DNA of 64,000 nt from a virus, in IMG/VR virus record IMGVR_UViG_3300022602_004075, positions 4,750-68,749 of that record; one strand, given 5' to 3'. Below are positions 4,048-29,221 of this stretch, one piece after another. The position numbers and the translations under genes are program-made. The first letter of the stretch is position 1. Each line of letters begins with the position of its first letter. Below the pieces are notes generated by a model. The model did not search any database. It had not been told where the DNA came from and was given only the letters and a program-made list of their open reading frames with translations.

Positions 4048-5227
4048 GTATAATATCGACAGTCATTATTCAAATATATTTCGTTATCTTGAAACTATTA
4101 TAACAGATCCCAGGGTCATATATCTACATCCTTTTGGGTCAACTCAGCCAGAAAACGTAGAAATCCTTCGGGATGATTACTATGCGGATCGTCCCAGACG
4201 CGGTCCATTGTTCATATTTTACGATCAAGAGCCATTGAACTTTGTTTATAATCTTCCGTTGTTCGAGCACATCAAGAACAAATTTGTGGGTCCGTTCATA
4301 TTAGTTAGCACCGAACGCGACAGCGATGAAAAAATAAAGATCTGTGACCACTTTGGTTTTGCCCATCTGGATTATTTTTTCCATATATTTGCTGCAGCCG
4401 ATTGGTATCGCGGACACGAATTTTTACCCGACTATGTGAAACCGTTCAATCGTGCGCTGAAAAAATCTTTTATAACATTCAACAGACTGACCAGTAATGA
4501 ACGAGTATATCGCAGTTTGTTTGTAAATGAACTTTACAAAAACGATCTACTGGACCATGGCTATGTCAGTTTCAGCAAGGATTGTCCCGATGGCGGAAAC
4601 TACGCTGAAAATCTAAGATTGAGTATTGCCAACCAACGTGTTGATCCTGCTGTTATTGAAGAAACTATACAAAATCTTGATTTGTTGCCTGAACTGCGTA
4701 TTGACTTTGATCAGGATCAGCACATACCCAATCAGAGCATGCTGTTGACTCCAATGACACAGTTGATGGAAAGTTTTGTATTTGTGGTCACCGAGACCTG
4801 CTACTGGCAAAACAAAACCCACCTGACCGAAAAGATATTCAAACCCATTGTTCTTCGTATGCCTTTTATCTTGGTAGGATGTCCACACAACTTGGAATAT
4901 CTGCGCAGTTACGGATTTCGTACTTTTGGTAATTTCTGGGATGAAAGCTATGACGAAATCGAAGATCCCATTGAGCGACTTCGGGCTGTGGTCAAAATTC
5001 TCAAACAATTGAGCGACATGACTGCCGAAGAACAGCACAACATGTTGGCGGCCATGCACCCAATATTAGAACACAATTATCAACTGTTCAACACGCCGGC
5101 ATTTGTAAATGGCGAGTGGCAAAATCTCAAAAACAGTTTAAAAAATATCACACAGTTTTATCAATTCAATCCGCCCTACACCATTGATGCCAAAACAGGA
5201 CAGGCTATTCCACTCGATTCCAAATAG
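4046..5227 (+). CDS. Putative glycosyltransferase (GT-B; TEK motif reminiscent of GT10)
   Basis: 393-aa ORF with VVTET...LTEKIFKPI...PFILVG...LRSYGFRTF, resembling the donor-binding TEK segment of GT10-type enzymes. The family call is tentative. Confidence 0.5.
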   Translation: MYNIDSHYSNIFRYLETIITDPRVIYLHPFGSTQPENVEILRDDYYADRPRRGPLFIFYDQEPLNFVYNLPLFEHIKNKFVGPFILVSTERDSDEKIKICDHFGFAHLDYFFHIFAAADWYRGHEFLPDYVKPFNRALKKSFITFNRLTSNERVYRSLFVNELYKNDLLDHGYVSFSKDCPDGGNYAENLRLSIANQRVDPAVIEETIQNLDLLPELRIDFDQDQHIPNQSMLLTPMTQLMESFVFVVTETCYWQNKTHLTEKIFKPIVLRMPFILVGCPHNLEYLRSYGFRTFGNFWDESYDEIEDPIERLRAVVKILKQLSDMTAEEQHNMLAAMHPILEHNYQLFNTPAFVNGEWQNLKNSLKNITQFYQFNPPYTIDAKTGQAIPLDSK

Positions 5228-5384
5228 TTTCGTGCAGATAGTACAGTACGGTATTTGCCACAACCTGTGTCACAGCAATGGTACTTGATACTGCTACCTG
5301 TCCGGTGATCAAGTAACTGATCAAAAATGTACTGGTTGACCCAACCACTCGCCAGGTCACAGTTTTCAACAAAGTCCTACTCAA
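5205..5384 (-). CDS. Small membrane protein, DUF2061-like (not in ORF track)
   Basis: Hand translation from TTG at 5384 gives MSRTLLKTVTWRVVGSTSTFLISYLITGQVAVSSTIAVTQVVANTVLYYLHETIWNRVE* (59 aa). It has the KTxTWR and YYLHExxW motifs and overlaps the upstream stop. Confidence 0.8.
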   Translation of the reverse strand: MSRTLLKTVTWRVVGSTSTFLISYLITGQVAVSSTIAVTQVVANTVLYYLHETIWNRVE

Positions 5385-6213
5385 GTCCCAAGGTCTTTCT
5401 AATCTTGGTAGCAGAGATATCAGTTACTGCTTCATCAAATGTTTCTTCGCCAGCGGTATAACCCACGCCACGACCCCAGCCAATGTGTACAATGTTGGGT
5501 ACCACTTGTACTTCGTACTGCCCTTGATACAAGGGATCCAAGTCTCTGCGTATAAAACTTTTGACCTGTTCTATAGCAAACGGATTTGATCCTTGCCAAC
5601 CCTGCACATCACGCACTTGAATAACTACTTGTCCTGTACGTTGAATTAGGCGTTCAAATAAAGCTCTGTGCCCATCATGCCATGGTTGCCAACGTCCCAA
5701 CATCTGTACTGTTTCTTTCTTCCAATCAAAAGTGGGTCTGCGACGATTGTCAACAATATGGCTACCGATAAACTCAGCCCACTTGTCTGCTGATTGTTCT
5801 GTTACACGAAAATCATAGTGTTCAGGTTCAACAAATGCTTTGTTAGTATCAGCATAACGTCCTTCACGGATAGTGTCTACCCATATGGTCCAATCGGCTT
5901 TGAAATTGTTACGCTGTTCAACCAACGGTGCAACAAAGTCACAGATCACATAGTCTCCACCGGACTCCATACTGAATTGGAACATGCGTAGGCTTTGACG
6001 TATACGGCCTTCATTTGAAAAATCCCAATCGTTGTACTTGCGACGCACATCATCGGCATTGAACCACGTGACTTTTACTGCGTTGTCCATCGGTTCCATC
6101 AATGCACGTGCATAGGTAATCTCGCCGTGCAATTCCAAGTATTTCTTTAATGCCTCGGCCAAGGTTGTTTTTCCTGCGCCAGGCAATCCCATGATTAAAA
6201 TACGCTGTGACAT
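5377..6213 (-). CDS. cysC: Adenylylsulfate-kinase-like domain fused to an HxGH nucleotidyltransferase domain
   Basis: P-loop GLPGAGKTT and NADDVR...DFSNEGR as in CysC. The C-terminus has GRWQPWHDGH and ISATKIR of the cytidylyltransferase-like superfamily. Confidence 0.72.
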   Translation of the reverse strand: MSQRILIMGLPGAGKTTLAEALKKYLELHGEITYARALMEPMDNAVKVTWFNADDVRRKYNDWDFSNEGRIRQSLRMFQFSMESGGDYVICDFVAPLVEQRNNFKADWTIWVDTIREGRYADTNKAFVEPEHYDFRVTEQSADKWAEFIGSHIVDNRRRPTFDWKKETVQMLGRWQPWHDGHRALFERLIQRTGQVVIQVRDVQGWQGSNPFAIEQVKSFIRRDLDPLYQGQYEVQVVPNIVHIGWGRGVGYTAGEETFDEAVTDISATKIRKTLGLE

Positions 6214-6872
6214 TATATTGCTCCTTTAAAATTGAATTTGGTCAAATCAAATTGATACTTTCCATCTGCTTGCTCAACTATATTGTAAATCTGTTCTGCT
6301 AATATTTGGTTGTTGTCTTCGGTAAAATGATTCACACGATTGTAATCGGCTTGTAAGATCCAAATATCTTTGGTTCCTGCTTCAAGCAAACTCAGACTGG
6401 TCAAGTCAGGTACCATGTGCTTTCCCGTCAATTGATCACAAAAATTCAAACTTTGATCAAATCCGTGCAAATGAATTGTGACCGGCCTGGTCCACTGTTG
6501 ATTTATTTCTGCAAACCAAGCCTGTTGTGCCCAGGTTAAAAATTCATCATTGTGTATATACTTGTAGTACAGTCCCACGGCATTATCTATCTCTTTGTCA
6601 GGATTCAATTTGCTAAAGTTGACCTGAGCCAACTTGGGATCCAGATTGGGAATACGATTTACAAAAGTGTGTACAAACACAATTACTTGTGTTGCGTTCC
6701 ATTGCTCTTGGTTGATTGTTTTTAAAAAATTTCTGGTAGCCCACCAGTGTTGTCCGCTGGCACCATTACAGATCAAATTCAAATTCAATCGTTGTGCCAG
6801 CATTGCAGGCCACCCTCCAGAGTATGTGCCCGACGAACAAAAGCTATCGCCCACTATCACTATGTTGGACAT
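6213..6872 (-). CDS. SGNH/GDSL-like hydrolase or acyltransferase
   Basis: N-terminal VGDSF and a C-terminal His (NHF). Confidence 0.55.
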   Translation of the reverse strand: MSNIVIVGDSFCSSGTYSGGWPAMLAQRLNLNLICNGASGQHWWATRNFLKTINQEQWNATQVIVFVHTFVNRIPNLDPKLAQVNFSKLNPDKEIDNAVGLYYKYIHNDEFLTWAQQAWFAEINQQWTRPVTIHLHGFDQSLNFCDQLTGKHMVPDLTSLSLLEAGTKDIWILQADYNRVNHFTEDNNQILAEQIYNIVEQADGKYQFDLTKFNFKGAI

Positions 6873-8356
6873 CAGCTACAAACTCGTACATTGTACATCT
6901 GTTCAAATCTATCAGCGTCAGAGCGATCGTTGACCATGGGTTCGCCACGTATGTTGAGACTGGTATTCAACAACATAGGGCAATCAGTTACCACATACCA
7001 CTTTTCTAATAATTCTCTGATTCCAGAACCGTCAGCTGGTACTGTCTGTATACGACTTGTGCCGTCATGATGAACGATAGCAGGAAATAGGTCAGGACGC
7101 CGGCAACGACCGACGATCTGCATATACCTACTGTCAACCCAGCCGCGAGGCATATCAAAATAGTCATTGACATGCTCCTCCAAAATGACCGGCGCAAATG
7201 GCCTAAATCGTTGTCTACGTTTGATTTCATTTACTCGATCCTTTATATCTGGTCCACGCGGGTCGGCGAGGAGACTTCTGTTTCCAAGGGCTCGGGGCCC
7301 AAATTCTGCTCTTCCGGAGGCCACCCCCACGATCTTATCACGGAGTAAGCAATCAAGGACGGCATTGACAGGGTACGCACCGCCAATATCTGTACCAAGG
7401 TAGGCATTCTGGAAGTTGATTGGGCCGCCGTAGACCAAGGCCGCAGATCCAAGACTACTACCAGCATCGCCAGGATTAGGCATAATCCAAATTTTTTCAA
7501 AATAATCACCGAGGTTTCTATTAGCAAGACAATTTAGGGCAACACCGCCCATGTAACACAAATTTGTGCTCCAGCCAAAATCTTTGGCTCGACGCATAAC
7601 ATTATATATCAAATTTTCACATAAACTCTGTGCAGAACTGGCAATATCTTGTACATCGTAATGTACGTTCCAGTTCCAGCTAAGTCCGGCGTGTAAGTTT
7701 TCCTTAAAACGTATATCCCACTCATCTTCAATTAACTGCATCTTCATTAAGGCGCCGGCCTGCTTGCTACCGTAGGCAGCCATACCCATAGTGATATATT
7801 CATCTTCCATGGGCTTTAGGCCAATTTCTTGGGTCATTGCTGTATAGAACAATCCTATTGAGTGTGGATACTTTTGGCTCCATAGTCGATGATACTCGGC
7901 TCGCCCATCGACGTAGTGAGCACCCCAGATACTGATAGTGTCCCATTCTCCAATGGCATCAATTACTACTACAGTAGCTCGCTTAAATGAGCTGGTCTGG
8001 AATCCGGCTGCTGCATGACTAAGGTGATGACTGTGTGTGCTTATTGGTACTCCACTAAAATAACCACGCAACTGTTGTTTGAGTACTTGCCGAGTGGTCA
8101 GCTTGTTCCACTCAATACCTTGCCCCGAATACAGTTGACGCAGTTGTTTTTTCCACGGAGTTTCATAGTATGCGATATGATCAATGTGTCTGCCATCGGT
8201 CAATTCCCAAAACATTGCTTCATGCAGGTTGGCATCATTTTTGATTTTGCTGTAACGCTCGGCATGGCCAGCATAGACTATTTCGCCATGCTGATCAATC
8301 ACTGTGGCAGCGGCGTCATGAAACCCGGCGCTAATTCCTAATATATTTTTTGACAT
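6872..8356 (-). CDS. O-carbamoyltransferase (NodU/CmcH/TobZ family)
   Basis: HDAAA, HHLSHAA, DAIGE, GGVALNC, GDAG, EFGPRALGNRSLLADPR, FRPFAP and LLNTSLN. Confidence 0.95.
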   Translation of the reverse strand: MSKNILGISAGFHDAAATVIDQHGEIVYAGHAERYSKIKNDANLHEAMFWELTDGRHIDHIAYYETPWKKQLRQLYSGQGIEWNKLTTRQVLKQQLRGYFSGVPISTHSHHLSHAAAGFQTSSFKRATVVVIDAIGEWDTISIWGAHYVDGRAEYHRLWSQKYPHSIGLFYTAMTQEIGLKPMEDEYITMGMAAYGSKQAGALMKMQLIEDEWDIRFKENLHAGLSWNWNVHYDVQDIASSAQSLCENLIYNVMRRAKDFGWSTNLCYMGGVALNCLANRNLGDYFEKIWIMPNPGDAGSSLGSAALVYGGPINFQNAYLGTDIGGAYPVNAVLDCLLRDKIVGVASGRAEFGPRALGNRSLLADPRGPDIKDRVNEIKRRQRFRPFAPVILEEHVNDYFDMPRGWVDSRYMQIVGRCRRPDLFPAIVHHDGTSRIQTVPADGSGIRELLEKWYVVTDCPMLLNTSLNIRGEPMVNDRSDADRFEQMYNVRVCS

Positions 8357-8975
8357 GTTCTGTTATTAACTGGTGTCCAAGTTCAAGTGGATGTCCGGCT
8401 GGTCCTTTGGGGCAATCGCCCATGTATTCTGTTAATCCACCATGTGGCCATCCAATGTAAAATTCTGGATCCACTGCTTGGGCCATGTGGCGGAATCGAT
8501 CTTTGATATTTTTAAATCCTTGCATACTGACAAACAAATAAGATTGACCTTGTTGTTTAAAATGGTTTTGCAATGTGACTACCTGTGCCAACCAAGTTTG
8601 CATGGCATGATCGTCATTGTAATGATTTTTATAATATTGATCAACCGCAGGTACTTGTTTATGCAACCAATGACTGTTGGCTGTTACAGGAAAGTCACGT
8701 TGGTTGAGTTGCCAATCTATTCTGGAAATTTCGGTCCACTGACATATGATCAAATCATATGAGTTTTTCAGTGATTTGTCCAAGGCCAATCTAAAAATTC
8801 TGCTGTTGCTTCCGCCTGGAATACTTAGATTGGTCAGCTCATACCCCAAGTCACTGGCCAACTTGGACGCCCAACTCAGCTGACTTGGTGCAGACGTGGC
8901 ACTACCTTCGTGTATTGGACAATCAGGTAATTCTAATCCGTGGGTAAAGCTGTCACCAATGGCCAGTAGTTTCAT
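8331..8975 (-). CDS. SGNH/GDSL-like protein
   Basis: IGDSFTHG, NLSIPGGSN and C-terminal GHPLELGH. Confidence 0.65.
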   Translation of the reverse strand: MKLLAIGDSFTHGLELPDCPIHEGSATSAPSQLSWASKLASDLGYELTNLSIPGGSNSRIFRLALDKSLKNSYDLIICQWTEISRIDWQLNQRDFPVTANSHWLHKQVPAVDQYYKNHYNDDHAMQTWLAQVVTLQNHFKQQGQSYLFVSMQGFKNIKDRFRHMAQAVDPEFYIGWPHGGLTEYMGDCPKGPAGHPLELGHQLITEHVKKYIRN

Positions 8976-9073
8976 TTATAAATAAACGGATCTCTTTTGC
9001 GTAGTTCTTTTAATTTTTTACGATAACGATATTCGAGTACAATTCTATTGTACAGATTTTTTAACCAATTCAT
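8972..9073 (-). CDS. 33-aa basic peptide (not in ORF track)
   Basis: MNWLKNLYNRIVLEYRYRKKLKELRKRDPFIYK*. Its TGA overlaps the next ATG (ATGA), and it spans the gap between two operon genes. Confidence 0.72.
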   Translation of the reverse strand: MNWLKNLYNRIVLEYRYRKKLKELRKRDPFIYK

Positions 9074-9851
9074 TGAATTTTCCTTGCATTAATTGTGTAG
9101 CCGCTTGATGTGCTGATTCTAATGGATGTGTGGCACCTACTGGGTATTTATTCTCTACTGCCCATTGGTAAAAACCTCTTGGCTGACAAGTATCTTGTGG
9201 GTCAACTCCGGCTGGAAACCAAAACCAATGGTCATGATCAATTTGATTGTGTAGTGCTTGCACATTGGCATCGCTCATGCTGTGATTGTAAAACAGCAGG
9301 TTATCTGCGCAGGTAAACATGTAAGGTATATTGTTTAATTTTAGGTAATTTTGCAAGTATACTATTTCTTTGATACTGGAATATATTTCCCATAATTCGC
9401 TACTGCCCACATGCCGATAAAATACATTGGCAAATTCAGACATGCCAGTTTCATTTGACACTCGGGTGGCTCGTCTATGATCTTCAATCACAGAATCAAT
9501 GGGATTTATAAACTCTTTGGTAACAGCATTGACGTCACCAATTCCGGTCCAGGGAGTTATAGTATACCACGGACTGTTGCGTTGACGGGTGTTGTAATCA
9601 AATCTAAATTCATAGCGTCCAGGAAAGGTCCAACTTACCAAGACTGCTAACTGTTGTTTGTCTGATTGTTCGCATCGGTTTATAACTGTACGAGCTATCG
9701 AATCGTTGCCGTATCCGGGCCAAGCTACACAATCGTATGTGTGCTCCTGTGACAGCAGGGCCGCAAAGGTACAGCGACTAGAACTGTCGTTGGTACAGTC
9801 CTGCAACTCGCTACCATAAACAAAACTGTCACCGCCGGCTACTATAATCAT
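9045..9851 (-). CDS. SGNH/GDSL-like protein
   Basis: GGDSFVYG, PGYGN, VSWT...R and C-terminal THPLESAH; similar to 8331..8975. Confidence 0.65.
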   Translation of the reverse strand: MIIVAGGDSFVYGSELQDCTNDSSSRCTFAALLSQEHTYDCVAWPGYGNDSIARTVINRCEQSDKQQLAVLVSWTFPGRYEFRFDYNTRQRNSPWYTITPWTGIGDVNAVTKEFINPIDSVIEDHRRATRVSNETGMSEFANVFYRHVGSSELWEIYSSIKEIVYLQNYLKLNNIPYMFTCADNLLFYNHSMSDANVQALHNQIDHDHWFWFPAGVDPQDTCQPRGFYQWAVENKYPVGATHPLESAHQAATQLMQGKFNELVKKSVQ

Positions 9852-20465: not shown

Positions 20466-21730
20466 TGTTCCAGTTCCGGTATGTAATCTGCAAGTTTAAC
20501 TCCCCTGCTGTGGTCAAGTGTGTCGTTGTAATCAAAAAATGCAGTCAATTGATGTTTATCAAATTCGGTTTGTTTGATCATGTTAATGAAATAATCTACT
20601 TTGTTGGCAAAGTATGATTCGGTACAATAACTTTTTGTTTGCTTCAACTGCTCCAGGCGCTCAATAGCAAGTTCTTTATTGGGAAAATTAAATGGCCAAT
20701 ACACGCCTTTGGAGGACTGGTTTAATAAAATTGTGGGTGGATGCGGTAATACATCATCCAAGAACACCACCAACTCATACAGTCTTGTGATGTTGTACAA
20801 ACTGACAGTGACGTTGACCGAAATATCTTCAGTGATTGTTTTGAGTGTTTCAATATTTTTTGTGATTGTTTCCCAATCAGCTGGCCAACGAATGTATTTA
20901 TTCACCGAGCCATACCCATCCAAACTCAAAGTAAAAGATATATTTTTAAAACGTTTCAACAAAGCCAAAATATTTTTATTTACATTTGTGGTATTTGTAA
21001 TAATGGTCAACGCAATATCAGTGCGTCCTTTACTGATTGCAGTTTCTAAAAATTTAGTGAACTCTGGCATGATAGTGGGTTCGCCACCGGCAATATATAC
21101 CTGTTCTACTGTATCATAATCTACTATTTCTGACAGTTTGGTTTGATTGCTGTTTGGTTTAAATTTCCAATGCAATTTTTTATATTCTTTTTCAAGTTGA
21201 GTGCTGGAAGCCGGGCGGCAAGTACGACAAGCAAGATTGCATAGGTTATCATTGCGTATGTCGTAGTATTTTAATTTTGGTTCTACGTTGTTGATGTCGG
21301 TACTGCCCAATTTGGATAACCACATTTTGGTATAACGCATCCGAGAACTTACACCACCGCTGTCTTCCATTGAATAACAATAGTTGCAAGATTTTACACG
21401 TTCCCCCGATTTCATTGCAGATCTAACTTTTTCAAAATCTGCATCTTTATAAAAATCAAATGAGCTGTTGTTTTCTTTCAAGCTGTCGCTGTAGCAACAC
21501 AATGCAATTTGGTTAGTTTCATTTATGTACATCTGTACAAATGGCAGTATGCAAAACGCCTTGTTGTCAAGCAACTGTTGATCGATCAAAAAACTGCCAG
21601 GAACATAACCAAATTTGCCAACACACTCGTCTTTGATGTTGTCGGGTAACAAATAGAACTGTTCTTCTGATGGGCAATCTGGCCAGGAATCGGCACGTAT
21701 TGTATTATAAAATGATTGCCAGTCGTTCAT
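20435..21730 (-). CDS. Radical SAM protein with Twitch-like domain and short N-terminal module (#8)
   Basis: Likely start MNDW at 21730 (ATGA overlap). CILPF...LCC...CNYC, then CNLACRTC and GGEP. Confidence 0.88.
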   Translation of the reverse strand: MNDWQSFYNTIRADSWPDCPSEEQFYLLPDNIKDECVGKFGYVPGSFLIDQQLLDNKAFCILPFVQMYINETNQIALCCYSDSLKENNSSFDFYKDADFEKVRSAMKSGERVKSCNYCYSMEDSGGVSSRMRYTKMWLSKLGSTDINNVEPKLKYYDIRNDNLCNLACRTCRPASSTQLEKEYKKLHWKFKPNSNQTKLSEIVDYDTVEQVYIAGGEPTIMPEFTKFLETAISKGRTDIALTIITNTTNVNKNILALLKRFKNISFTLSLDGYGSVNKYIRWPADWETITKNIETLKTITEDISVNVTVSLYNITRLYELVVFLDDVLPHPPTILLNQSSKGVYWPFNFPNKELAIERLEQLKQTKSYCTESYFANKVDYFINMIKQTEFDKHQLTAFFDYNDTLDHSRGVKLADYIPELEQCRELITKQI

Positions 21731-23112
21731 TGTTGTCCGTAGTACTTGCACTCGTTCCAAAACTCCCGCATCTCCGGGAAAGTCTCTAAAAAATTGGTTT
21801 GTCGACGCTGATCGTGTTCATTAAAGAAACGATAAAAGTCTGCACGTTGTAGTTTAACATAGCCAGGATCCAAATTGCGACCTTCCTTCATCCAGTCGAT
21901 GTCACGGCGCATACGTTGTACTTCGTAGTCCTTGAATCCGTGAAATGGATCCTCGGCTGTTTCTAAATTCAGCTCCATCCAGTCGGCCACACGTTCCAAT
22001 ACCCCCACATACACTTCAGGCAATATTTGTAAACTTTGCCAAGTGGGTGTGCGTAGTAATGGAGTATCAAACCAAACACGTTGGTAGGTTGTGCTGTGGG
22101 CTCTACGTAGACTCAATATCCAATCCAGCTGGCTTTGTAAGCCCAGTACACTGAGATTGTTCATGGTGATAATAAATGTCAGGCTGTTGCGATATGGAAC
22201 TTCGGTAAGGTATCTTTCAACATAGTGCGACAGTCTACGTGGATCCAACCCGTGTCTAATGTAAGCAGCATGTTTCCAGTTGCCTGAATCCAAGCTGACA
22301 TATTGCATAAAATGTTCAATGTTGGTATTGCATAGATTTTTAACATAGCCCAGGTACCGTTCAAACAGGGCCGGCTCTACAGAGAAGTTACTGGTCACAT
22401 TTAAGTGTAGTTCAGGATTGGGCATGGCCAACACATAGTCAAACACTTTGTAGGTGTTTCGATCCATCAATGGCTCACCGCCGGTCATACGGAAATGTTT
22501 TAGCTGGGGGTACAGTTCAGGCCACCACTCCCAAAATGCGTCAACGTAGGGATTGGCGTCACGAGCAGGAATAGGGCGATTGCGACCAGTAAAGTGACTG
22601 GGATCATTGTGTATAGTGCTAGTAGGATATCCGCCCCAACGATCGGCTTCTGCTTGCCAACTTGAACTAAATTGTGGACTGCAATAACTACAAGCCAAAT
22701 TACAGGCGTGATTAAAATTAACTTCAACATAACTAGGAACCACATCATTTTCTTCTCCGGTTGAATTTTTGATTGTATCGTATGCTTCTGCTGCCCAAGG
22801 TTCGCCTGATCTATAATGACGATCACTCAATTGATCGTGCGCTTCAATATTCCAGCAATAAGAGCACTCGCTGGGTTTTTCGTTTTTAAGCATGATAACA
22901 CGTTGCTGTTTCTTATGCTCGGTGTTGTGTAGTGCACCAGGATTTGTTTTGATTGCTTCTGCGTCAATGGCATGCAAGGGTGGGTGATAGCAACTGTTGT
23001 TGAGCCCGGTGGGCAAATGTAGACTCACCTGCTTCCATTTGGCCAAGCAGAGTGCAGGACCAAGATCCTGTTTCATTTGTTCGGCTGCTGATAAAAACTT
23101 ACTTTTGCTCAT
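21727..23112 (-). CDS. Radical SAM protein, AKW/SCxHP subtype (#9)
   Basis: CLAKW...SCYHP...CSYC, then CNLACSYC and GGEP. Confidence 0.9.
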   Translation of the reverse strand: MSKSKFLSAAEQMKQDLGPALCLAKWKQVSLHLPTGLNNSCYHPPLHAIDAEAIKTNPGALHNTEHKKQQRVIMLKNEKPSECSYCWNIEAHDQLSDRHYRSGEPWAAEAYDTIKNSTGEENDVVPSYVEVNFNHACNLACSYCSPQFSSSWQAEADRWGGYPTSTIHNDPSHFTGRNRPIPARDANPYVDAFWEWWPELYPQLKHFRMTGGEPLMDRNTYKVFDYVLAMPNPELHLNVTSNFSVEPALFERYLGYVKNLCNTNIEHFMQYVSLDSGNWKHAAYIRHGLDPRRLSHYVERYLTEVPYRNSLTFIITMNNLSVLGLQSQLDWILSLRRAHSTTYQRVWFDTPLLRTPTWQSLQILPEVYVGVLERVADWMELNLETAEDPFHGFKDYEVQRMRRDIDWMKEGRNLDPGYVKLQRADFYRFFNEHDQRRQTNFLETFPEMREFWNECKYYGQQ

Positions 23113-23142
23113 TTATATATTTTCTAAGATTTGATGAATTGG

Positions 23143-24039
23143 TCATTCTCTTATCATGGGTCCACGATTGCGAAATTGACTCTTGTAGTGTTGCTTGAAA
23201 AATGCACTGGCATCAGGATCCATATCCACTATAGGCAAACTCAGTTTGGTACGTAAAATATCGCCTATGTTGGCACATTGGTCTGCTCCATCATGTTCAA
23301 AACTTTTCCATAGTGCAGACAACACATCAAAGTTCTGCACATCTCGATAGTTCCACCCTTCCAGCATCATCATATATGTGCCAAGACGTGCTCCATATAT
23401 GGCCCAAAATCCGTTGTCGGCATCGGCTCCCACTGATTGCCAAATACACAGGTTGTCATAGTTGCGACTGTTTACCCGACTTTCAAATTCTTGTAGCGTG
23501 GGCTTGGCACCACGATCTAAACACATCTTGACACCTTCTCTAAAGCCGGCACGCCAGGCTTGGAATGGTGTGGCATTGGGATATGTGGTGCTATAGCAAT
23601 CGGCCATGGCCCAGTAGTTGGGATAAAAGCAAAACTCCACATCGTTGGCCGCGGTTCCATCTGAAGCTTCGTGTGTACGCATTGCGTAAACAAATTCTTT
23701 GGTCCAGCAACTCATACCACCGTTGCCGTACATCAATCCGTTAACAGCGTTACGAGCCCGCCAACGAAAAACGCAAGAGTCATTAGTATTGTTAAGGGCC
23801 AGTTGCAGGTTGAAAAAATCAGGATCTGGAATATTATCTCCGTCAATAAGAATAAAACGGTCTGTATCGCTTGCATCTGCAGCCGCTTTGTGAGCGGCAT
23901 CACTGCCTTTAACTCCGTCCACTCGCTTGGCCCACGGTACCATGTTTTGGATTCTGATCCAGTTGGTTTCTTTGTTTGGTTCGTCATAGGTTAAAAATAT
24001 ACAATCCAAGTCTGCTACATCAATAATTTGGTCGCTCAT
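23143..24039 (-). CDS. Glycosyltransferase-like protein (GT-A, DxD)
   Basis: AHKAAADASDTDRFILIDGDN gives a GT2-like strand followed by DxD. Paralogous to the C-terminus of 2215..4047. Confidence 0.65.
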   Translation of the reverse strand: MSDQIIDVADLDCIFLTYDEPNKETNWIRIQNMVPWAKRVDGVKGSDAAHKAAADASDTDRFILIDGDNIPDPDFFNLQLALNNTNDSCVFRWRARNAVNGLMYGNGGMSCWTKEFVYAMRTHEASDGTAANDVEFCFYPNYWAMADCYSTTYPNATPFQAWRAGFREGVKMCLDRGAKPTLQEFESRVNSRNYDNLCIWQSVGADADNGFWAIYGARLGTYMMMLEGWNYRDVQNFDVLSALWKSFEHDGADQCANIGDILRTKLSLPIVDMDPDASAFFKQHYKSQFRNRGPMIRE

Positions 24040-24385
24040 AAAATTCTGTCTCTGTGTATGTTTCTCCGGATTCTACAATCAATCCAGCGTGTGCTTTTAC
24101 TACTTGAAATCCAGTGCTACCGGGTTCCAATTGTCTTCGATATGCCAGATCAGTTTCTATTTTTATCAATTGGCCTTTGGTCACTCGATAAAGATAATGT
24201 TGCTGATAGGTCTCTTGATCAACCACAACATAATCGCCCGACGCCGGGTGATCGTTGGGTGAATTGGTGCAAAGATAAATGCGCCCTTTGGTATCGTAAT
24301 ACAGTCTGTATTCTGGTTCTATTGTCGGCCATACCACAAGTGCGGCCTTGACTTCATCCCAAAATGCTTGTTCTTCTGGACTCAT
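24020..24385 (-). CDS. Hypothetical protein
   Basis: 121-aa ORF overlapping both neighbours in the operon. Confidence 0.7.
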   Translation of the reverse strand: MSPEEQAFWDEVKAALVVWPTIEPEYRLYYDTKGRIYLCTNSPNDHPASGDYVVVDQETYQQHYLYRVTKGQLIKIETDLAYRRQLEPGSTGFQVVKAHAGLIVESGETYTETEFYERPNY

Positions 24386-25217
24386 AATATTTAATTAATT
24401 CCTGGGTGGCGTATGTTTTATCGTGATAGTGTACTGGATCATATTGATTGAGATTGTTGATCCTGATCATATCTCCATCGCGTTCTGGCATCACAGTTTC
24501 CAACCAGCTGTGTGTATCTGACCAGCCCTGGAAACCAGACTTCATGTGTACAAAATTAACAAAGTCCATGGTAGGCATGGTTACAGATTCTGTGCCCACT
24601 ATCAAACTGGCAATGGCATACAATACATCGGTGCTGGGTGTATCTTCTCTGCAATTTTTTAATTCGTCCCGATACAGATCCCAGTGTTCAAATACCATTT
24701 TGGCCACATTGAAAAAATCTGCGGCCTCGCGACTGTATCTAAAATACATCAATCCATTATAAACATCAGGCAATTGATTGCTGTCAAACAGTTCTCTGTA
24801 CTTTCTCACGCCTGAACGAATACCACGATATGTTTTGGCACCGGTACTTAAACAAACATTTCGTAGTCTAAATGCAGTCCACCAGTGATCAATATTGCGT
24901 GTAAACAACAAATCACTTTCCAGTTTTATTGTTTCTTTAAAAGGCGTAAGACCAAACACTTGCCATTCGTTAGCAAATTTTCTATCATTGGCAGGGTCAT
25001 TATAATCCCGGGGCAAATCAATAATGTAATCAAAAGTACGATGATGACGTTCATCAAGTTTCTCCTTTGTGGCAGCATCTACAATCACTGCATAACTGTT
25101 GTTCTTCTGTGTTGCTTTGACATTGAGTGCTTGCAGATAGGCCAGCTCCAAATAATCCACTGTGTCTGTATTTTGTGCAAATGTAACAAATCCCAACTGT
25201 TCTTTATGTTGGCTCAC
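24354..25217 (-). CDS. Glycosyltransferase-like protein (GT-A, degenerate ESD)
   Basis: TPFKETIKLESDLL and YNGLMYF; paralogue of 25204..26025. Confidence 0.6.
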   Translation of the reverse strand: MSQHKEQLGFVTFAQNTDTVDYLELAYLQALNVKATQKNNSYAVIVDAATKEKLDERHHRTFDYIIDLPRDYNDPANDRKFANEWQVFGLTPFKETIKLESDLLFTRNIDHWWTAFRLRNVCLSTGAKTYRGIRSGVRKYRELFDSNQLPDVYNGLMYFRYSREAADFFNVAKMVFEHWDLYRDELKNCREDTPSTDVLYAIASLIVGTESVTMPTMDFVNFVHMKSGFQGWSDTHSWLETVMPERDGDMIRINNLNQYDPVHYHDKTYATQELIKYYESRRTSILG

Positions 25218-26025
25218 AGACTGCCTCCACTATTTGTTCAAAATCTCTGCTTTGTAAATACTCTTTGTCCATCACATGTATGTTTTGATACGGAACCACT
25301 ATGGCTTTTTCCTTGTGGTAAACTTGTACAAAATTATCAGTCAACATTATGCGTTCAATCTTTTTTTCTATGGTCAGCATGGGCCAAGGAATTCCTTGCG
25401 ATTCATTCAGTGTATAACCATTGACAATGTTGTTGGCCATAGCAAACGCATAGTCATTGCGATAGTTGCCTTCTCTCACGTGATACAACAAAGAATAATA
25501 ATCGTAATTTCTTTGTATGCGACCCACCAAGTTAAAAAACAACCGACTGCGTTCAGTTTTTCTAAAAACTACCACTGTGGCCCAAACAAAAGGCAACCCA
25601 ACAGCACCCATTTCCTCGGCCATTGGGCCAGCTGGTGTTACGCTATGATGCATGAGTCTATAATCAAACGGTGTGTCAAACAATTTTAACAAGCTGTTAT
25701 CCAACACCAGATAGTCAGTGTCTATCAAAACAGTTTCGTGGTACGGACTCAATTCATATGCAAGATAACGATCAAAGTTACGCCATTGCAGTACCTGATT
25801 GTTGGTGTTTCTATATGTACTACCTGATGTATCGATCTTTATTACCTGATCGTAGGCAAATCCAGGTGTGGCATCTGTATCGGTTATCAAGGTTACGGGT
25901 AATTGTAGATGTCGATCAATCAATCGGCTGGTCAAATCAGCTATGCGAACATAGTCAACTGTGCCGGTGTTGAAAGCGAATACTACAACTCCTCTAGATT
26001 TTTCTGAGTCGTTTGAGTTCTGCAT
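25204..26025 (-). CDS. Glycosyltransferase-like protein (GT-A, DTD)
   Basis: SPYHETVLIDTDYL resembles the DxD segment of GT8/GT71-type enzymes; RND motif downstream. Confidence 0.65.
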   Translation of the reverse strand: MQNSNDSEKSRGVVVFAFNTGTVDYVRIADLTSRLIDRHLQLPVTLITDTDATPGFAYDQVIKIDTSGSTYRNTNNQVLQWRNFDRYLAYELSPYHETVLIDTDYLVLDNSLLKLFDTPFDYRLMHHSVTPAGPMAEEMGAVGLPFVWATVVVFRKTERSRLFFNLVGRIQRNYDYYSLLYHVREGNYRNDYAFAMANNIVNGYTLNESQGIPWPMLTIEKKIERIMLTDNFVQVYHKEKAIVVPYQNIHVMDKEYLQSRDFEQIVEAVCEPT

Positions 26026-26308
26026 GTTGTTGATGCCAGGTATTCATCACTTGTTGATAGTGCTCACGTGCCAATTGTAACAATTCTGATCTATTGACCG
26101 CTATGGGATTTTGGTAGGTATCTTCCAGATACAGTTGATCCTCGGGCCAGGTAGTTAAAAAACTGATCAGGTCCATTGATATCAAAAATAAACCTCCGTT
26201 GTAAGGCACGTGCAGATCTGTTTGGATCTTTTCGCGTAGAATACGTTTATTGACCTGGTAATCAGTGGCCAGACGTATTTCGGCTGTGAGTTTTTCGAGT
26301 TCAGTCAT
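25994..26308 (-). CDS. Hypothetical protein, first gene of the modification operon
   Basis: 104-aa ORF just downstream of the sigma70-like promoter. Confidence 0.7.
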   Translation of the reverse strand: MTELEKLTAEIRLATDYQVNKRILREKIQTDLHVPYNGGLFLISMDLISFLTTWPEDQLYLEDTYQNPIAVNRSELLQLAREHYQQVMNTWHQQHAELKRLRKI

Positions 26309-26311
26309 ATA

Positions 26312-26353
26312 GAATAAAAGGTGTAGATAGCTATTATACTACTCTACACCTTT
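26312..26353 (-). terminator. Intrinsic terminator for the minus-strand virion transcript
   Basis: Inverted repeat AAAGGTGTAGA (26317-26327) / TCTACACCTTT (26343-26353). On the minus strand the stem runs into TTTTATTCT. Confidence 0.6.
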
Positions 26354-26361
26354 AAGGTCAA
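26333..26361 (-). promoter_or_regulatory. sigma70-like promoter for the modification operon
   Basis: Minus strand TTGACC (26361-26356), 17-nt spacer, TATAAT (26338-26333). Confidence 0.7.
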
Positions 26362-27346: not shown

Positions 27347-27366
27347 TTACTGTTGTTCCTTTATTC

Positions 27367-29213: not shown

Positions 29214-29221
29214 GCTTGTAA

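What the first reader, a model, noticed from the sequence alone, without database searches (positions are those of the whole stretch)
5205..26361. A 23-gene phage operon combining glycosyltransferases, nine radical SAM enzymes and carbamoyl/acyl/nucleotidyl tailoring genes, attached to the tail module
Seen: 23 minus-strand genes from 26308 to 5205 that overlap or abut, except for one 30-nt gap, behind a single TTGACC-17-TATAAT promoter. The order is GT-like genes, then the radical SAM array, then SGNH proteins and a carbamoyltransferase, then an APS-kinase/NTase fusion. An epimerase, a DegT aminotransferase and two more GT-like genes are adjacent (200-5227). Known: NodU/TobZ carbamoylate sugar hydroxyls, DegT enzymes make amino-sugars, and the Twitch rSAM BtrN oxidises an aminocyclitol. 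Inference: this is a biosynthetic-cluster-like assembly line that builds and radically tailors a glycan or hypermodification on virion proteins, phage DNA or the host surface. I know of no characterised phage pathway with this composition.
Basis: partly seen in the sequence, partly recalled or inferred. Interest (0 to 1): 0.92.

Follow-up and report, generated by a model that had tools for sequence, protein, structure and literature searches.

The report
Jumbo-phage sugar-tailoring island, many radical-SAM genes
A lake-water jumbo phage carries, right behind its tail-fibre genes, a conserved block of sugar-building, sugar-transferring and nine radical-SAM genes that most likely makes an unusual, heavily tailored glycan whose target is still unknown.

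Summary
I count 22 minus-strand ORFs, not 23, from 26308 to 5208. They overlap or abut except for two gaps, of 30 nt and 69 nt, and lie behind a TTGACC-17-TATAAT site.

All nine radical SAM genes are intact. Seven pass the cut-off of NCBIfam NF033640, a family with an N-terminal twitch domain and no characterised member that I could find.

The block is not an accident of this contig:
- The window is part of a fragment (about 20% complete) of a T4-like jumbo phage.
- The carbamoyltransferase has relatives on 224 viral contigs.
- 47 of 61 loci with enough flank keep the exact order g08-g09-g11-g15-g16-carbamoyltransferase.
- 4 of 4 near-complete relatives (338-357 kb) place the block directly after the tail-fibre module.

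Glycosyltransferase calls are supported to different degrees. f3 folds as tandem GT-A domains. g05 has a DxD motif. The g02/g03 profile finds only glycogenin, and weakly.

Bacterial chromosomes pair the same radical SAM family with carbamoyltransferase, DegT, SDR, GT, SGNH and sulfotransferase genes.

Sugar or glycan tailoring is therefore well supported. The acceptor is not shown. I favour virion or tail-fibre proteins. DNA modification through hydroxymethyl bases looks unlikely, and a RiPP pathway looks unlikely.

The parts
26333..26361 (-). sigma-70-like promoter TTGACC-17-TATAAT upstream of g01
   Evidence: Sigma-70-like hexamers sit at the same place in 4 of 4 near-complete relatives, and two of them have a hairpin with a T-run just before.
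25994..26308 (-). g01, 104 aa, unknown
   Evidence: No Pfam or PHROG hit. Conserved in place in G001-G004.
25204..26025 (-). g02, 273 aa, GT8 (glycogenin)-like candidate with a DTD motif
   Evidence: Paralogue of g03. The g02/g03 profile finds only glycogenins in the PDB, best E 0.0035. Motif seen.
24354..25217 (-). g03, 287 aa, GT8-like candidate
24020..24385 (-). g04, 121 aa, unknown
   Evidence: Found at E <= 1e-5 in 2 of 4 near-complete relatives (L082, L083).
23143..24039 (-). g05, 298 aa, GT-A-type glycosyltransferase candidate (IDGDN DxD motif), homologous to the C-terminal domain of f3
   Evidence: Pfam Glyco_tranf_2_3 E 0.0059, below cut-off. BLASTP to f3 E 8.6e-12. Motif.
21727..23112 (-). 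g06, N-terminal-twitch radical SAM (NF033640), orthologue group 1
   Evidence: 283 bits against a cut-off of 170. CX3CX2C present. Own clade in the tree.
20435..21760 (-). g07, NF033640 radical SAM with an N-terminal extension, not a core member in relatives
   Evidence: 274.8 bits. 0 of 80 loci have a hit of 50% identity or more.
19116..20465 (-). g08, NF033640 radical SAM, orthologue group 2 (also kept in Ralstonia phage RsoM2USA)
   Evidence: 290 bits..
17809..19116 (-). g09, NF033640 radical SAM, orthologue group 3
   Evidence: 409 bits..
16821..17816 (-). g10, generic radical SAM with C-terminal Cys residues, accessory
   Evidence: Pfam 30.4 bits. CX3CX2C at residue 18. Found in 12 of 80 loci.
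15613..16824 (-). g11, NF033640 radical SAM, orthologue group 4
   Evidence: 339 bits..
13969..15612 (-). g12, NF033640 radical SAM, 40% paralogue of g09 with a 150-aa N-terminal extension
   Evidence: 375 bits. BLASTP. Groups with the g09 clade.
13190..13978 (-). g13, 262 aa, unknown, accessory
   Evidence: No family hit. Found in 3 of 80 loci.
12187..13206 (-). g14, divergent radical SAM (partial NF033640 match), accessory
   Evidence: 60.4 bits, below the cut-off of 170. Pfam 43.1 bits. CX3CX2C present.
10898..12190 (-). g15, NF033640 radical SAM, orthologue group 5, the most conserved of the five
   Evidence: 290 bits. 65 of 80 loci have a hit of 50% identity or more.
9829..10941 (-). g16, 370 aa, conserved unknown. 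Overlaps the end of g15 by 44 nt after its stop codon.
   Evidence: Found in 66 of 80 loci. AF2 pLDDT 82, pTM 0.82. No Foldseek hit at E <= 1e-3. VIA matches to cyclophilin-like barrels, Z 7.4-8.6, inconclusive.
9045..9851 (-). g17, 268 aa, SGNH-like (GDS block I)
   Evidence: Motifs. Weak BLASTP link to g18. No Pfam hit.
8331..8975 (-). g18, 214 aa, SGNH/GDSL-like, DUF6071
   Evidence: DUF6071 29.7 bits against a cut-off of 27. Lipase_GDSL_2 at 20 bits, below cut-off.
6872..8356 (-). g19, NodU/CmcH/TobZ-type carbamoyltransferase
   Evidence: Carbam_trans_C 160.4 bits and Carbam_trans_N 116.9 bits. Relatives on 224 viral contigs.
6213..6872 (-). g20, 219 aa, GDS-motif protein, accessory
   Evidence: Motif. 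Found in 6 of 80 loci. No family hit.
5377..6213 (-). g21, fusion of an APS-kinase-like P-loop kinase and an HxGH nucleotidyltransferase-like domain
   Evidence: APS_kinase 32.6 bits covering profile positions 4-94 of 152. NMNAT-like hits at E 3e-5. Occurs as two separate hits in some relatives.
5205..5384 (-). g22, 59 aa, DUF2061 small membrane protein
   Evidence: 74.2 bits. The only full-length hydrophobic protein in the block.
4046..5227 (+). f4, 393 aa, conserved virus-only family. GT10-like is a lead only.
   Evidence: Found in 52 of 80 loci. Atlas: viral clusters at 0.97-0.98, and a GT10 cluster at 0.80, which is a lead only. No PDB hit with the profile.
2215..4047 (-). f3, 610 aa, tandem GT-A-like glycosyltransferase domains
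   Evidence: AF2 pLDDT 84.8. Foldseek: K4CP chondroitin polymerase 2.4e-5, Mimivirus R699 5.7e-5, LH3/ColGalT1, PBCV-1 A64R prob 0.99.
1125..2231 (+). f2, DegT/DnrJ/EryC1 sugar aminotransferase
   Evidence: Pfam 240 bits. Nearest model PseC at 158 bits, below cut-off.
200..1159 (+). f1, extended-SDR NDP-sugar epimerase/4,6-dehydratase
   Evidence: Pfam Epimerase 167.7 bits. dTDP-glucose 4,6-dehydratase model at 106 bits, below cut-off.
26378..35857 (-). tail-fibre-like genes directly upstream of the block
   Evidence: Peptidase_G2, Collar and Gly_rich_2 hits. Tail-fibre PHROGs. Same neighbours in 4 of 4 near-complete relatives.

Best explanation
The block is a conserved, virus-encoded, cytoplasmic pathway that builds and radically tailors a glycan. 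It belongs to a lineage of roughly 340-kb T4-like jumbo phages found in lake metagenomes.

Proposed logic (inferred from family membership, not shown):
1. f1 (SDR 4,6-dehydratase/epimerase) and f2 (DegT aminotransferase) make an NDP-amino-deoxy-sugar.
2. g21 (kinase plus nucleotidyltransferase-like domain) activates a sugar or supplies an activated donor.
3. GT-A-type transferases (f3, g05, and perhaps the GT8-like g02/g03 and f4) attach sugars to an acceptor.
4. Five anciently diverged orthologue groups of N-terminal-twitch radical SAM enzymes (g06, g08, g09, g11, g15), plus this phage's extra copies, each abstract a hydrogen at a different position. The outcomes would be of the kind known for twitch radical SAM sugar enzymes: epimerisation, dehydrogenation, deoxygenation or C-C bond formation.
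5. The SGNH proteins add or remove O-acyl groups.
6. g19 O-carbamoylates a hydroxyl.

I think the most likely acceptor is a virion protein of the adjacent tail-fibre module.

Shown: the gene families, their intact motifs, their conservation and order, and their link to sugar genes in bacteria.
Inferred: every chemical step and the acceptor.

My odds: about 0.7 that it is sugar or glycan tailoring of some kind, and about 0.35 that virion proteins are the target.
For: Family calls:
- Nine radical SAM genes with intact CX3CX2C. Seven are over the NF033640 cut-off, with four conserved N-terminal Cys residues.
- Carbamoyltransferase, DegT and SDR all well over their Pfam cut-offs.
- f3 folds as tandem GT-A domains. 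g05 is homologous to it and has a DxD motif. The g02/g03 profile matches only glycogenin, 19 of 19 rows, best E 0.0035.

Conservation:
- 224 of 225 candidate viral stretches encode a carbamoyltransferase relative.
- Of the 80 loci kept, 61 have at least 9.5 kb upstream. 47 of these show the exact order g08-g09-g11-g15-g16-g19, and 55 have 4 or more N-twitch radical SAM hits.
- 48 of the 54 loci with at least 9 kb downstream have f3 and f2 in the same orientation.
- 4 of 4 near-complete relatives have giant protein, tail fibres, then g01, g02, g03 and g05 immediately before g06; g04 was found in 2 of the 4.
- Each of the five radical SAM groups is a supported clade, SH-aLRT 98-100 in a quick tree. 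This fits distinct roles rather than redundancy.

Bacterial counterpart:
- Of 70 bacterial-type loci holding the family, 7 have a carbamoyltransferase within 10 kb, 13-16 a UbiA or UbiA-GT4-SGNH gene, 14 a PhyH dioxygenase, 11 an SDR and 4 a DegT.
- One Crocinitomicaceae chromosome locus reads SDR, carbamoyltransferase, SxtJ-like, UbiA-GT4-SGNH, radical SAM x2, sulfotransferase, SGNH, radical SAM, unknown 363-aa ORF, PhyH.

For a cytoplasmic acceptor:
- No hydrophobic segment in 26 block proteins except the 59-aa g22 and the N-terminal extension of g12.
- No Wzx, Wzy, polyprenyl-phosphate GT or transporter family among the Pfam hits.

A cultured relative, Ralstonia phage RsoM2USA, keeps a g08-type radical SAM, an SGNH-like gene and the carbamoyltransferase side by side.
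Against: - No member of NF033640 has a known substrate. The nearest solved radical SAM cores include peptide maturases (SkfB) as well as nucleotide and sugar enzymes (viperin, BlsE, MoaA), all at weak E-values.
- Several GT calls are weak. g02/g03 reach only E 0.0035. g05 is below the Pfam cut-off. f4 has an atlas lead of only 0.80. Whole-chain TM-scores for f3 are low, 0.13-0.20.
- The C-terminal domain of f3 lacks the DxD motif seen in g05.
- The block has its own sigma-70-like promoter, and in two relatives a terminator-like hairpin separates it from the tail-fibre genes. It is therefore not simply part of the structural operon, and adjacency may be inherited synteny.
- The relatives carry 3-7 further NF033640 copies scattered elsewhere, and two sit between recombination genes in this window. 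The family's role may be broader than one pathway.
- The bacterial neighbourhoods are heterogeneous: 100 Pfam families among 118 neighbours. They include membrane UbiA proteins that the phage lacks.
- No RNA or protein data exist for this block.
Confidence: 0.45

Rival explanations
1. Host-envelope remodelling. The soluble phage enzymes act on the host's own lipid-linked or surface glycans during infection. They would re-tailor, carbamoylate or de-O-acylate them, for example to block superinfection or to free progeny from receptors.
For: - The bacterial counterparts of the radical SAM family sit in clusters with membrane UbiA and GT4 proteins, which suggests a lipid-anchored glycan as the native substrate.
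- The block has its own sigma-70-like promoter, compatible with expression before virion assembly.
- SGNH proteins are typical O-acetyl esterases or transferases of surface polysaccharides (family knowledge, recalled).
Against: - The phage block has no lipid-carrier GT, flippase, polymerase or exporter, and no membrane protein apart from the 59-aa DUF2061.
- The host is unknown, so I could not check whether it has a matching cluster.
- The fixed position next to the tail fibres in 4 of 4 relatives is not explained.
Confidence: 0.2
2. A soluble small molecule. The block makes an aminoglycoside-, aminocyclitol- or nucleoside-like compound, or a modified nucleotide-sugar, that acts in the infected cell or on competitors and is not attached to a macromolecule.
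For: - The tailoring set resembles secondary-metabolite tailoring: twitch radical SAM, DegT, carbamoyltransferase, SGNH, APS-kinase-like kinase, and in bacteria PhyH, sulfotransferase, an SxtJ-like protein, ketosynthases and a WelO5-type halogenase.
- A cyanomyovirus paper reports an rSAM maturase gene (ORF306), a DegT-family (AHBA_syn) gene (ORF305) and an inosamine amidinotransferase gene (ORF309) in one phage genome and calls them antibiotic-synthesis genes (PMC12801897, passages read).
Against: - Three to five GT-like genes, including a three-domain GT-A protein, fit oligosaccharide assembly on an acceptor better.
- There is no exporter.
- Conservation next to the tail fibres is unexplained.
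Confidence: 0.12
3. Protein or peptide modification by the radical SAM enzymes. The N-twitch enzymes cross-link or epimerise residues in virion proteins or in a small precursor, in RiPP fashion, while the sugar genes are a separate neighbouring function.
For: - SPASM/twitch radical SAM enzymes are mostly peptide maturases.
- Weak secondary NCBIfam hits go to such maturases. SkfB is among the nearest solved cores.
- Small unknown ORFs (g01, g04) and large structural proteins lie nearby.
Against: - No RRE/PqqD domain, leader peptidase or transporter among the Pfam hits.
- g01 has no Cys and g04 has one.
- In bacteria the family's recurrent neighbours are UbiA, GT, SDR, DegT, PhyH and carbamoyltransferase, not precursor peptides.
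- The radical SAM genes and the sugar genes are interleaved and co-conserved.
Confidence: 0.08
4. DNA hypermodification. The glycan or a tailored group is attached to phage DNA bases to evade restriction.
For: - Phage GTs often glycosylate DNA, and radical SAM, PLP and P-loop kinase enzymes occur in thymidine hypermodification pathways (PMC8989533 and PMC5889632, search listing and abstract starts only).
- DHFR and thymidylate synthase lie next to f1.
- The sigma-70-like promoter fits early expression.
Against: - In 4 near-complete relatives there is at most one PF00303 gene, scoring 352-365 bits like a canonical thymidylate synthase, and none in two of them. The window's own record has one at 351 bits. 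No candidate dCMP or dUMP hydroxymethylase was found, so the known glycosyl-hmC and hmU-based routes lack their entry step.
- I did not search for 5-HMUDK or aGPT-Pplase homologues.
Confidence: 0.07

Closest known systems
Virus-encoded glycosylation machineries of giant viruses (Mimivirus fibril glycans, chlorovirus PBCV-1 capsid glycans). Comparison partly recalled.
   Same: - A virus carries its own soluble NDP-sugar 4,6-dehydratase, DegT-type aminotransferase and GT-A transferases, and glycosylates its own particle without host membrane machinery.
- The f3 model matches Mimivirus R699 (E 5.7e-5) and PBCV-1 A64R (prob 0.99).
   Different: - Those systems have no radical SAM array, no carbamoyltransferase and no SGNH set.
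- Here the host is a bacterium, and virion glycosylation has not been shown.
Mycobacteriophage virion glycosylation (Freeman et al. 2023, seen only as a reference cited in other papers)
   Same: Phage-encoded glycosyltransferases sit next to structural genes and decorate capsid or tail proteins.
   Different: Those clusters are small, a few GTs. They do no sugar-nucleotide synthesis and no radical tailoring.
Twitch radical SAM sugar enzymes of aminoglycoside pathways, such as BtrN (other members recalled from memory, not tested here)
   Same: - A radical SAM core plus one auxiliary 4Fe-4S twitch domain.
- They work beside DegT aminotransferases, GTs and, in tobramycin, the carbamoyltransferase TobZ.
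- The BtrN twitch region (residues 184-258) aligns weakly to the N-terminal domain of the paralogue profile, E 0.011.
   Different: - The auxiliary domain is N-terminal here, a permuted order.
- There is no detectable full-length similarity to BtrN.
- There are five to nine paralogues per cluster rather than one or two.
- The substrate is unknown.
NCBIfam NF033640 'twitch domain-containing radical SAM protein'
   Same: Seven block genes and two more in the window score 206-409 bits against a cut-off of 170.
   Different: - The family is only a named sequence model.
- I found no paper using 'N-terminal twitch', 'N_Twi_rSAM' or 'NF033640'. The expansion to 8-12 copies per phage genome therefore appears undescribed in the searched library.
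Bacteroidota and Bdellovibrionota chromosomal clusters with the same radical SAM family (for example loci L101, L102, L138)
   Same: N-twitch radical SAM paralogues occur in tandem with carbamoyltransferase, SDR, DegT, GT and SGNH genes.
   Different: - The bacterial versions add a membrane UbiA-family protein (sometimes fused to GT4 and SGNH), PhyH dioxygenases and a sulfotransferase.
- They lack f3, f4 and g16 (one weak exception for the 363-aa unknown).
T4-like environmental viral genome with 12 radical SAM genes (Nishimura et al. 2017, PMC5332604, passage read)
   Same: A T4-like uncultured phage with many radical SAM genes.
   Different: - That one is marine and 183 kb.
- The authors discuss the genes only as part of Fe-S metabolism.
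- The passage describes no cluster structure or sugar link. Supplements are closed, so I could not compare genes.

Membership tests
Radical SAM superfamily (PF04055) | CX3CX2C motif that binds the SAM-cleaving 4Fe-4S cluster | tested here: met
   Present once in each of the 9 block proteins and in the 2 outside copies.
Radical SAM superfamily (PF04055) | Pfam score over the gathering cut-off of 29.5 bits | tested here: inconclusive
   4 of 9 are over (g07, g09, g10, g14). 5 of 9 are below, at E 2.4e-5 to 4.9e-4. The six-frame genome search put 8 of 11 over the cut-off.
NF033640 N-terminal-twitch radical SAM | Whole-protein score over the curated cut-off of 170 bits | tested here: met
   g06 283, g07 275, g08 290, g09 409, g11 339, g12 375, g15 290, the 58286-59455 gene 206, the 60523-61977 gene 300. 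g14 scores 60 and g10 has no hit, so those two are not members.
NF033640 N-terminal-twitch radical SAM | Cys-rich auxiliary-cluster domain placed N-terminal to the radical SAM core | tested here: met
   The Pfam SPASM hit lies before the Radical_SAM hit in g09, g11, g12 and g15. Four invariant Cys residues precede CX3CX2C in all 9 paralogues.
NF033640 N-terminal-twitch radical SAM | Known substrate or reaction | not testable with these tools
   No characterised member was found. Literature search. PDB profile search.
NodU/CmcH/TobZ carbamoyltransferases | Both the Carbam_trans_N and Carbam_trans_C domains over cut-off | tested here: met
   116.9 and 160.4 bits.
NodU/CmcH/TobZ carbamoyltransferases | Equivalog-level identity with NodU | tested here: not met
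   130.7 bits against a cut-off of 1000, and only the C-terminal half is matched. It is a member of the family, not NodU itself.
DegT/DnrJ/EryC1 sugar aminotransferases | Full-length Pfam match | tested here: met
   240 bits, profile positions 3-359 of 360. No equivalog is reached; PseC scores 158 against 423.5, so the sugar is not specified.
Extended SDR NDP-sugar epimerase/dehydratase | Full-length Epimerase or GDP_Man_Dehyd match | tested here: met
   167.7 and 115.8 bits. All equivalog models are below cut-off.
GT-A glycosyltransferases (f3, g05) | GT-A Rossmann-like fold | tested here: met
   f3 model pLDDT 84.8. 14 PDB matches at E <= 1e-3, all of them GT-A enzymes. Whole-chain TM is low (0.13-0.20) because the protein has several domains.
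GT-A glycosyltransferases (f3, g05) | DxD metal and nucleotide-sugar binding motif | tested here: inconclusive
   g05 has IDGDN. The homologous stretch of f3 reads FAVFAKLE in the consensus.
GT8 / glycogenin-like (g02, g03) | Significant sequence or fold match to GT8 | tested here: inconclusive
   Profile against the PDB: 19 of 19 rows are glycogenins, but the best E is 0.0035 and only residues 8-106 are matched. No Pfam hit.
SGNH/GDSL hydrolases (g17, g18, g20) | Block I GDS with the catalytic Ser near the N-terminus | tested here: met
   GDS at residues 7, 7 and 8.
SGNH/GDSL hydrolases (g17, g18, g20) | Block V DxxH and a Pfam score over cut-off | tested here: not met
   DxxH occurs only in g17 (DHDH at 205). 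g18 scores 20 bits for Lipase_GDSL_2 against a cut-off of 32.9. g17 and g20 have no hit.
Adenylyl-sulfate (APS) kinase (g21 N-terminus) | Full-length match over cut-off | tested here: inconclusive
   Pfam 32.6 bits against 21.1, but only profile positions 4-94 of 152 are matched. NCBIfam apsK scores 25 against 138.7. It is a P-loop kinase of that fold; APS as substrate is not shown.
RiPP biosynthetic clusters | Precursor peptide plus an RRE/PqqD-like recognition domain | tested here: not met
   No such Pfam family in any of the 26 block proteins at E <= 0.01, or at E <= 5 for the ten unknowns. Precursor peptides under 59 aa were not searched for.
hmC/hmU-based DNA hypermodification systems | A thymidylate-synthase-like pyrimidine hydroxymethylase in addition to, or instead of, ThyA | tested here: not met
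   0 or 1 PF00303 hit per near-complete relative, each scoring 352-365 bits. One at 351 bits sits beside DHFR in the window's own record.

The most novel reading that the evidence does not exclude
The N-terminal-twitch radical SAM family is a new class of glycan-tailoring radical enzymes. A cosmopolitan lineage of lake jumbo phages uses five or more specialised paralogues, together with a carbamoyltransferase, SGNH enzymes and its own amino-sugar supply, to build a heavily C-H-functionalised, carbamoylated (perhaps sulfated) glycan on its tail fibres. That would be a virion glycocalyx of a chemical complexity not known for any virus, probably tuning adsorption or shielding the fibres.
Probability: 0.25. 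Interest if true: 0.9.

Novelty: new variant of a known kind. Interest (0 to 1): 0.72.

Why it matters
If this reading is right, three things follow.

1. It gives a first functional context to a very large, uncharacterised radical SAM family. At least 6937 protein clusters match at E <= 1e-10. Near-complete phage genomes carry 8-12 copies each.
2. It points to new radical carbohydrate chemistry that can be tested with recombinant enzymes.
3. It suggests that abundant freshwater jumbo phages invest about 25 kb in decorating a macromolecule. That would bear on host recognition, on defence evasion, and on how virus-encoded glycosylation evolved outside the giant eukaryotic viruses.

The matching bacterial clusters offer a second, genetically tractable route to the product.

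Tried and rejected
Searches that found little or nothing:
- Megablast of the whole block against GenBank phages: no match.
- A distant blastn of the baseplate region gave one 73-nt hit.
- Single-sequence and profile searches of the PDB found nothing for g16, g09, f3, f4 or g03. The g05 profile gave only chance-level rows.
- hhalign of the g02/g03 profile against the g05 profile: probability 1%, no relation.
- Pfam at E <= 5 for ten unknowns: nothing usable.
- PHROGs for ten unknowns: one weak hit to a family of unknown function.
- ESM Atlas: nothing for g16. For f4, only viral hypothetical clusters plus a 0.80 lead to GT10.

g16 structure:
- Foldseek against the PDB gave no match at E <= 1e-3.
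- The VIA wide search gave cyclophilin-like barrels at Z 7.4-8.6. By the tool's own note this may be only a common arrangement.

Other steps:
- Complex prediction of g15 with g16: no verdict (score 0.00, controls not run). It says nothing either way.
- The look-up of sequencing runs: no RNA holder is listed. Two lake-water DNA runs hold 0.83-0.88 of the words, and two freshwater runs hold small shares that I did not lay.
- The T4 late-promoter motif TATAAATA occurs once in the window against 2.6 expected. Expression timing could not be read from promoters.
- The first genome-contig scan with g09 alone found no relative.
- The moraphage paper (PMC12619734) proved to describe a different lineage.
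- The RsoM2USA paper contains neither 'radical' nor 'carbamoyl'.
- Sulfotransferase-like hits in relatives are all below cut-off.
- A search for a paper combining radical SAM, carbamoyltransferase, sulfotransferase, UbiA, glycosyltransferase and Bacteroidetes found none.

Rows dropped:
- Orthologue ORFs whose translation held a stop were left out of alignments: L022, L042 and L074 (after).
- Alignments used a spread of 13-16 of the 26-66 available orthologues.
- The tree used 78 rows: 9 window paralogues, 30 phage orthologues at 45% identity or more, and 39 bacterial ORFs from 16 of 70 loci. It is the quick tree, not the finished careful one.
- The Pfam tally used 118 of 161 non-radical-SAM neighbour ORFs, those of 700 aa or less lying within about 6 kb of the match.

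Full report
WHAT THE WINDOW IS

The window is bases 4750-68749 of a 68.7-kb IMG/VR virus record that CheckV rates about 20% complete. It encodes T4-type baseplate wedge and hub proteins, tail-fibre-like proteins and a gp55-like late sigma factor. Relatives of its carbamoyltransferase lie on viral contigs of up to 357 kb, four of them rated 95-100% complete. The source is therefore a T4-like jumbo phage of roughly 340 kb. Two lake-water metagenome runs hold 83-88% of the sampled words of the block. The closest cultured phage I found is Ralstonia phage RsoM2USA (344 kb), at only 44% identity for the carbamoyltransferase.

THE OBSERVATION

The ORF listing gives 22 co-directional minus-strand ORFs from 26308 to 5208. 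I label them g01-g22, and the four adjacent genes at 200-5227 f1-f4. Nineteen of the 21 junctions overlap or abut. There is a 30-nt gap (g05 to g06) and a 69-nt gap (g17 to g18).

TTGACC-17-TATAAT sits at 26361-26333, in the 69-nt spacer (26309-26377) between the last tail-fibre-like gene and g01. It is one of four matches of 11 or more out of 12 in the 64 kb. All four near-complete relatives have sigma-70-like hexamers at the same spot. Two of them have a GC-rich hairpin with a T-run just before it. The block therefore looks like its own transcription unit.

GENE FAMILIES

Nine proteins hit Pfam Radical_SAM, and all nine have one CX3CX2C. Seven (g06, g07, g08, g09, g11, g12, g15) score 275-409 bits on NCBIfam NF033640, 'twitch domain-containing radical SAM protein', against a cut-off of 170. 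Two more genes outside the block also pass, at 58286-59455 and 60523-61977.

In these proteins the auxiliary-cluster domain lies N-terminal to the radical SAM core. The Pfam SPASM hit precedes the Radical_SAM hit, and four Cys residues upstream of CX3CX2C are invariant in all nine paralogues. g14 is a divergent relative (60 bits). g10 is a generic radical SAM with C-terminal cysteines. The paralogues are 21-40% identical to each other.

The other families:
- g19 is a two-domain NodU/CmcH/TobZ-type carbamoyltransferase.
- f2 is a DegT aminotransferase and f1 an extended SDR. Both are well over their Pfam cut-offs, but neither reaches any equivalog model.
- g21 joins an APS-kinase-like P-loop to an HxGH nucleotidyltransferase-like domain. 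Both hits are weak.
- g22 is a 59-aa DUF2061 membrane protein.
- g17, g18 and g20 carry the N-terminal GDS block of SGNH enzymes. Only g18 has even weak Pfam support.

THE GT-LIKE CALLS

f3 (610 aa) gave an AlphaFold2 model of pLDDT 84.8. All 14 of its Foldseek matches at E <= 1e-3 are GT-A glycosyltransferases: chondroitin polymerase K4CP, Mimivirus R699, and LH3/ColGalT1. PBCV-1 A64R follows at probability 0.99. Whole-chain TM-scores are low, as expected for a three-domain protein.

g05 is homologous to the C-terminal domain of f3 (E 8.6e-12) and has an IDGDN motif. A profile of g02/g03 orthologues finds only glycogenins in the PDB, 19 of 19 rows, but at E 0.0035 and over the first 100 residues only. 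f4 has only a language-model lead to GT10 (score 0.80).

So the GT calls range from supported (f3, g05) to plausible (g02, g03) to untested (f4).

g16, the conserved partner of g15, folds confidently (pLDDT 82, pTM 0.82). It has no Foldseek match and only middling VIA matches to cyclophilin-like barrels. Its role is open.

CONSERVATION

A pattern scan found 224 viral stretches encoding a carbamoyltransferase relative, and I kept the best 80, at 64-85% identity. Many of these loci are cut short by contig ends or by the 10-kb flank limit, so the counts below are lower bounds.

Loci with a hit covering more than half of the query, out of 80:

| Gene | Loci |
|---|---|
| g19 | 80 |
| g15 | 68 |
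| g11 | 68 |
| g16 | 66 |
| g09 | 64 |
| g08 | 63 |
| g06 | 62 |
| f3 | 61 |
| f2 | 54 |
| f4 | 52 |
| f1 | 47 |

Gene order:
- Of the 61 loci with at least 9.5 kb upstream of the carbamoyltransferase, 47 show exactly g08-g09-g11-g15-g16-g19.
- 55 of those 61 have four or more N-twitch radical SAM hits.
- Of the 54 loci with at least 9 kb downstream, 48 have f3 and f2 in the same orientation.

g01-g05 lie beyond the 10-kb flanks. When I fetched 20 kb upstream in the four near-complete genomes, all four showed giant protein, 228-aa protein, tail-fibre-like genes, then g01, g02, g03 and g05 directly before g06, at 28-85% identity; g04 was detected in two of the four (L082, L083).

These genomes hold 8-12 NF033640 matches at E <= 1e-10, of which 8-10 clear the family's cut-off: five tandem in the block and the rest scattered. 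RsoM2USA holds two. RsoM2USA keeps only a g08-type radical SAM, an SGNH-like gene and the carbamoyltransferase side by side.

In a quick maximum-likelihood tree each of the five phage orthologue groups is a clade with SH-aLRT 98-100. g12 falls with g09, and the 60523-61977 gene falls with g11 (long-branch warnings apply). Old, separately conserved paralogues fit a multi-step pathway better than redundancy.

BACTERIAL COUNTERPARTS

A pattern from the radical SAM motif found 441 relatives in one-genome-per-species contigs, of which 78 loci were kept. Eight of the 78 are MAG-binned contigs carrying the phage-type block. The other 70 look bacterial, mostly Bacteroidota and Bdellovibrionota, some on Mb-scale contigs. 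Many have 2-5 tandem copies of the family.

Using neighbours from two Bacteroidota loci as tblastn queries at E <= 1e-8, the counts among the 70 loci are:

| Neighbour within 10 kb | Loci of 70 |
|---|---|
| UbiA-family (alone or fused to GT4-SGNH) | 13-16 |
| PhyH dioxygenase | 14 |
| SDR | 11 |
| Carbamoyltransferase | 7 |
| DegT | 4 |
| SxtJ-like | 4 |
| Sulfotransferase | 2 |

One Crocinitomicaceae chromosome locus reads SDR, carbamoyltransferase, SxtJ-like, UbiA-GT4-SGNH fusion, radical SAM, radical SAM, sulfotransferase, SGNH, radical SAM, an unknown 363-aa ORF, PhyH.

A Pfam tally of 118 neighbours from 16 loci is heterogeneous, with 100 families. PhyH is the commonest at 4 members. The association is therefore recurrent but not universal. 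Even so, the same partners recur in bacteria as in the phage: carbamoyltransferase, SGNH, SDR, DegT, GT, and sulfation-related genes set against the phage's APS-kinase-like g21. This is the strongest argument that the family works on sugars or glycoconjugates.

WHICH ACCEPTOR?

The 26 block proteins have no hydrophobic segments except g22 and one N-terminal extension. No lipid-carrier GT, flippase, polymerase or transporter appears. The phage lacks the UbiA component of the bacterial clusters. This favours a cytoplasmic acceptor.

For DNA, the usual entry enzyme is missing. Near-complete relatives have zero or one PF00303 gene, scoring like canonical ThyA. The window's own record has ThyA next to DHFR just upstream of f1.

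For peptides, no RRE or leader-processing genes were seen.

That leaves three candidates: virion proteins, host glycoconjugates and a soluble product. I rank virion proteins first. The block sits directly behind the tail-fibre module across a deep divergence, and virus-encoded soluble amino-sugar plus GT-A machineries are known to decorate particles in giant viruses and mycobacteriophages (recalled; the latter seen only as a citation). The separate promoter, and the terminator-like hairpin in two relatives, weaken this argument.

LITERATURE

I found no paper naming this radical SAM family or its N-terminal twitch, and none linking jumbo phages, radical SAM and carbamoyltransferase in this way.

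- Nishimura et al. 2017 mention a T4-like marine genome with 12 radical SAM genes, in a discussion of Fe-S metabolism (passage).
- A 2025 cyanomyovirus paper lists an rSAM maturase (ORF306), a DegT-family gene (ORF305) and an amidinotransferase (ORF309) in one phage genome as 'antibiotic synthesis genes' of unclear role (passages).
- The RsoM2USA paper does not mention these genes.
- Nol-like carbamoyltransferases are annotated in many cyanomyoviruses and pelagiphages.

VERDICT

The general interpretation, a biosynthetic-cluster-like sugar-tailoring pathway, is well supported. The specific chemistry and the target are not known. It is best filed as a new variant of virus-encoded glycosylation, built around an uncharacterised radical SAM family.

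Noticed in passing
window 57397-63780 (+): A gp55-like late sigma factor is followed by an NF033640 radical SAM (58286-59455), a gp47/Mre11-like phosphoesterase, a second NF033640 radical SAM with an N-terminal extension (60523-61977), and a gp46/Rad50-like ATPase. Two more family members are thus interleaved with recombination genes, away from the sugar block.
   Followed up: partly
window 36547-47853 (-): A 3768-aa ORF with traces of FG-GAP and CBM5/12 domains. Homologues occupy the same position before the tail-fibre genes in four near-complete relatives.
   Followed up: partly
window 31223-34150 (-): A 975-aa glycine-rich (Gly_rich_2) fibre-like protein. Local GC rises to 0.52 against about 0.43 elsewhere.
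   Followed up: no
L086 (G000:C1) 2929-4309, just outside the window: Dihydrofolate reductase and a canonical thymidylate synthase lie immediately upstream of f1. A thymidylate synthase also lies next to the block in G001 and G002.
   Followed up: yes
L089-L096 (genome contigs): Eight contigs filed under bacterial MAGs (for example bins named Legionellales, Verrucomicrobia, Haliscomenobacter) carry the phage-type block at 50-71% identity. This is probably phage DNA binned with bacteria, and it is not reliable as a host clue.
   Followed up: partly
L101, L102, L138 and 13 further bacterial loci: A recurrent Bacteroidota cluster type: a UbiA-family protein (sometimes fused to GT4 and SGNH), PhyH dioxygenases, an SDR and 2-3 N-twitch radical SAM genes, with or without a carbamoyltransferase, an SxtJ-like protein and a sulfotransferase. 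I found no description of it.
   Followed up: partly
G003:C1:62565-65133: In one near-complete relative the APS-kinase-like gene is not in the block. It lies about 2 kb from a weak (below cut-off) sulfotransferase-like hit, which hints at sulfation.
   Followed up: no
window 13969-15612 and 60523-61977: The N-terminal extensions of g12 and of the 60523-61977 radical SAM align with each other and contain a hydrophobic stretch. They may be a shared extra domain of unknown role.
   Followed up: no
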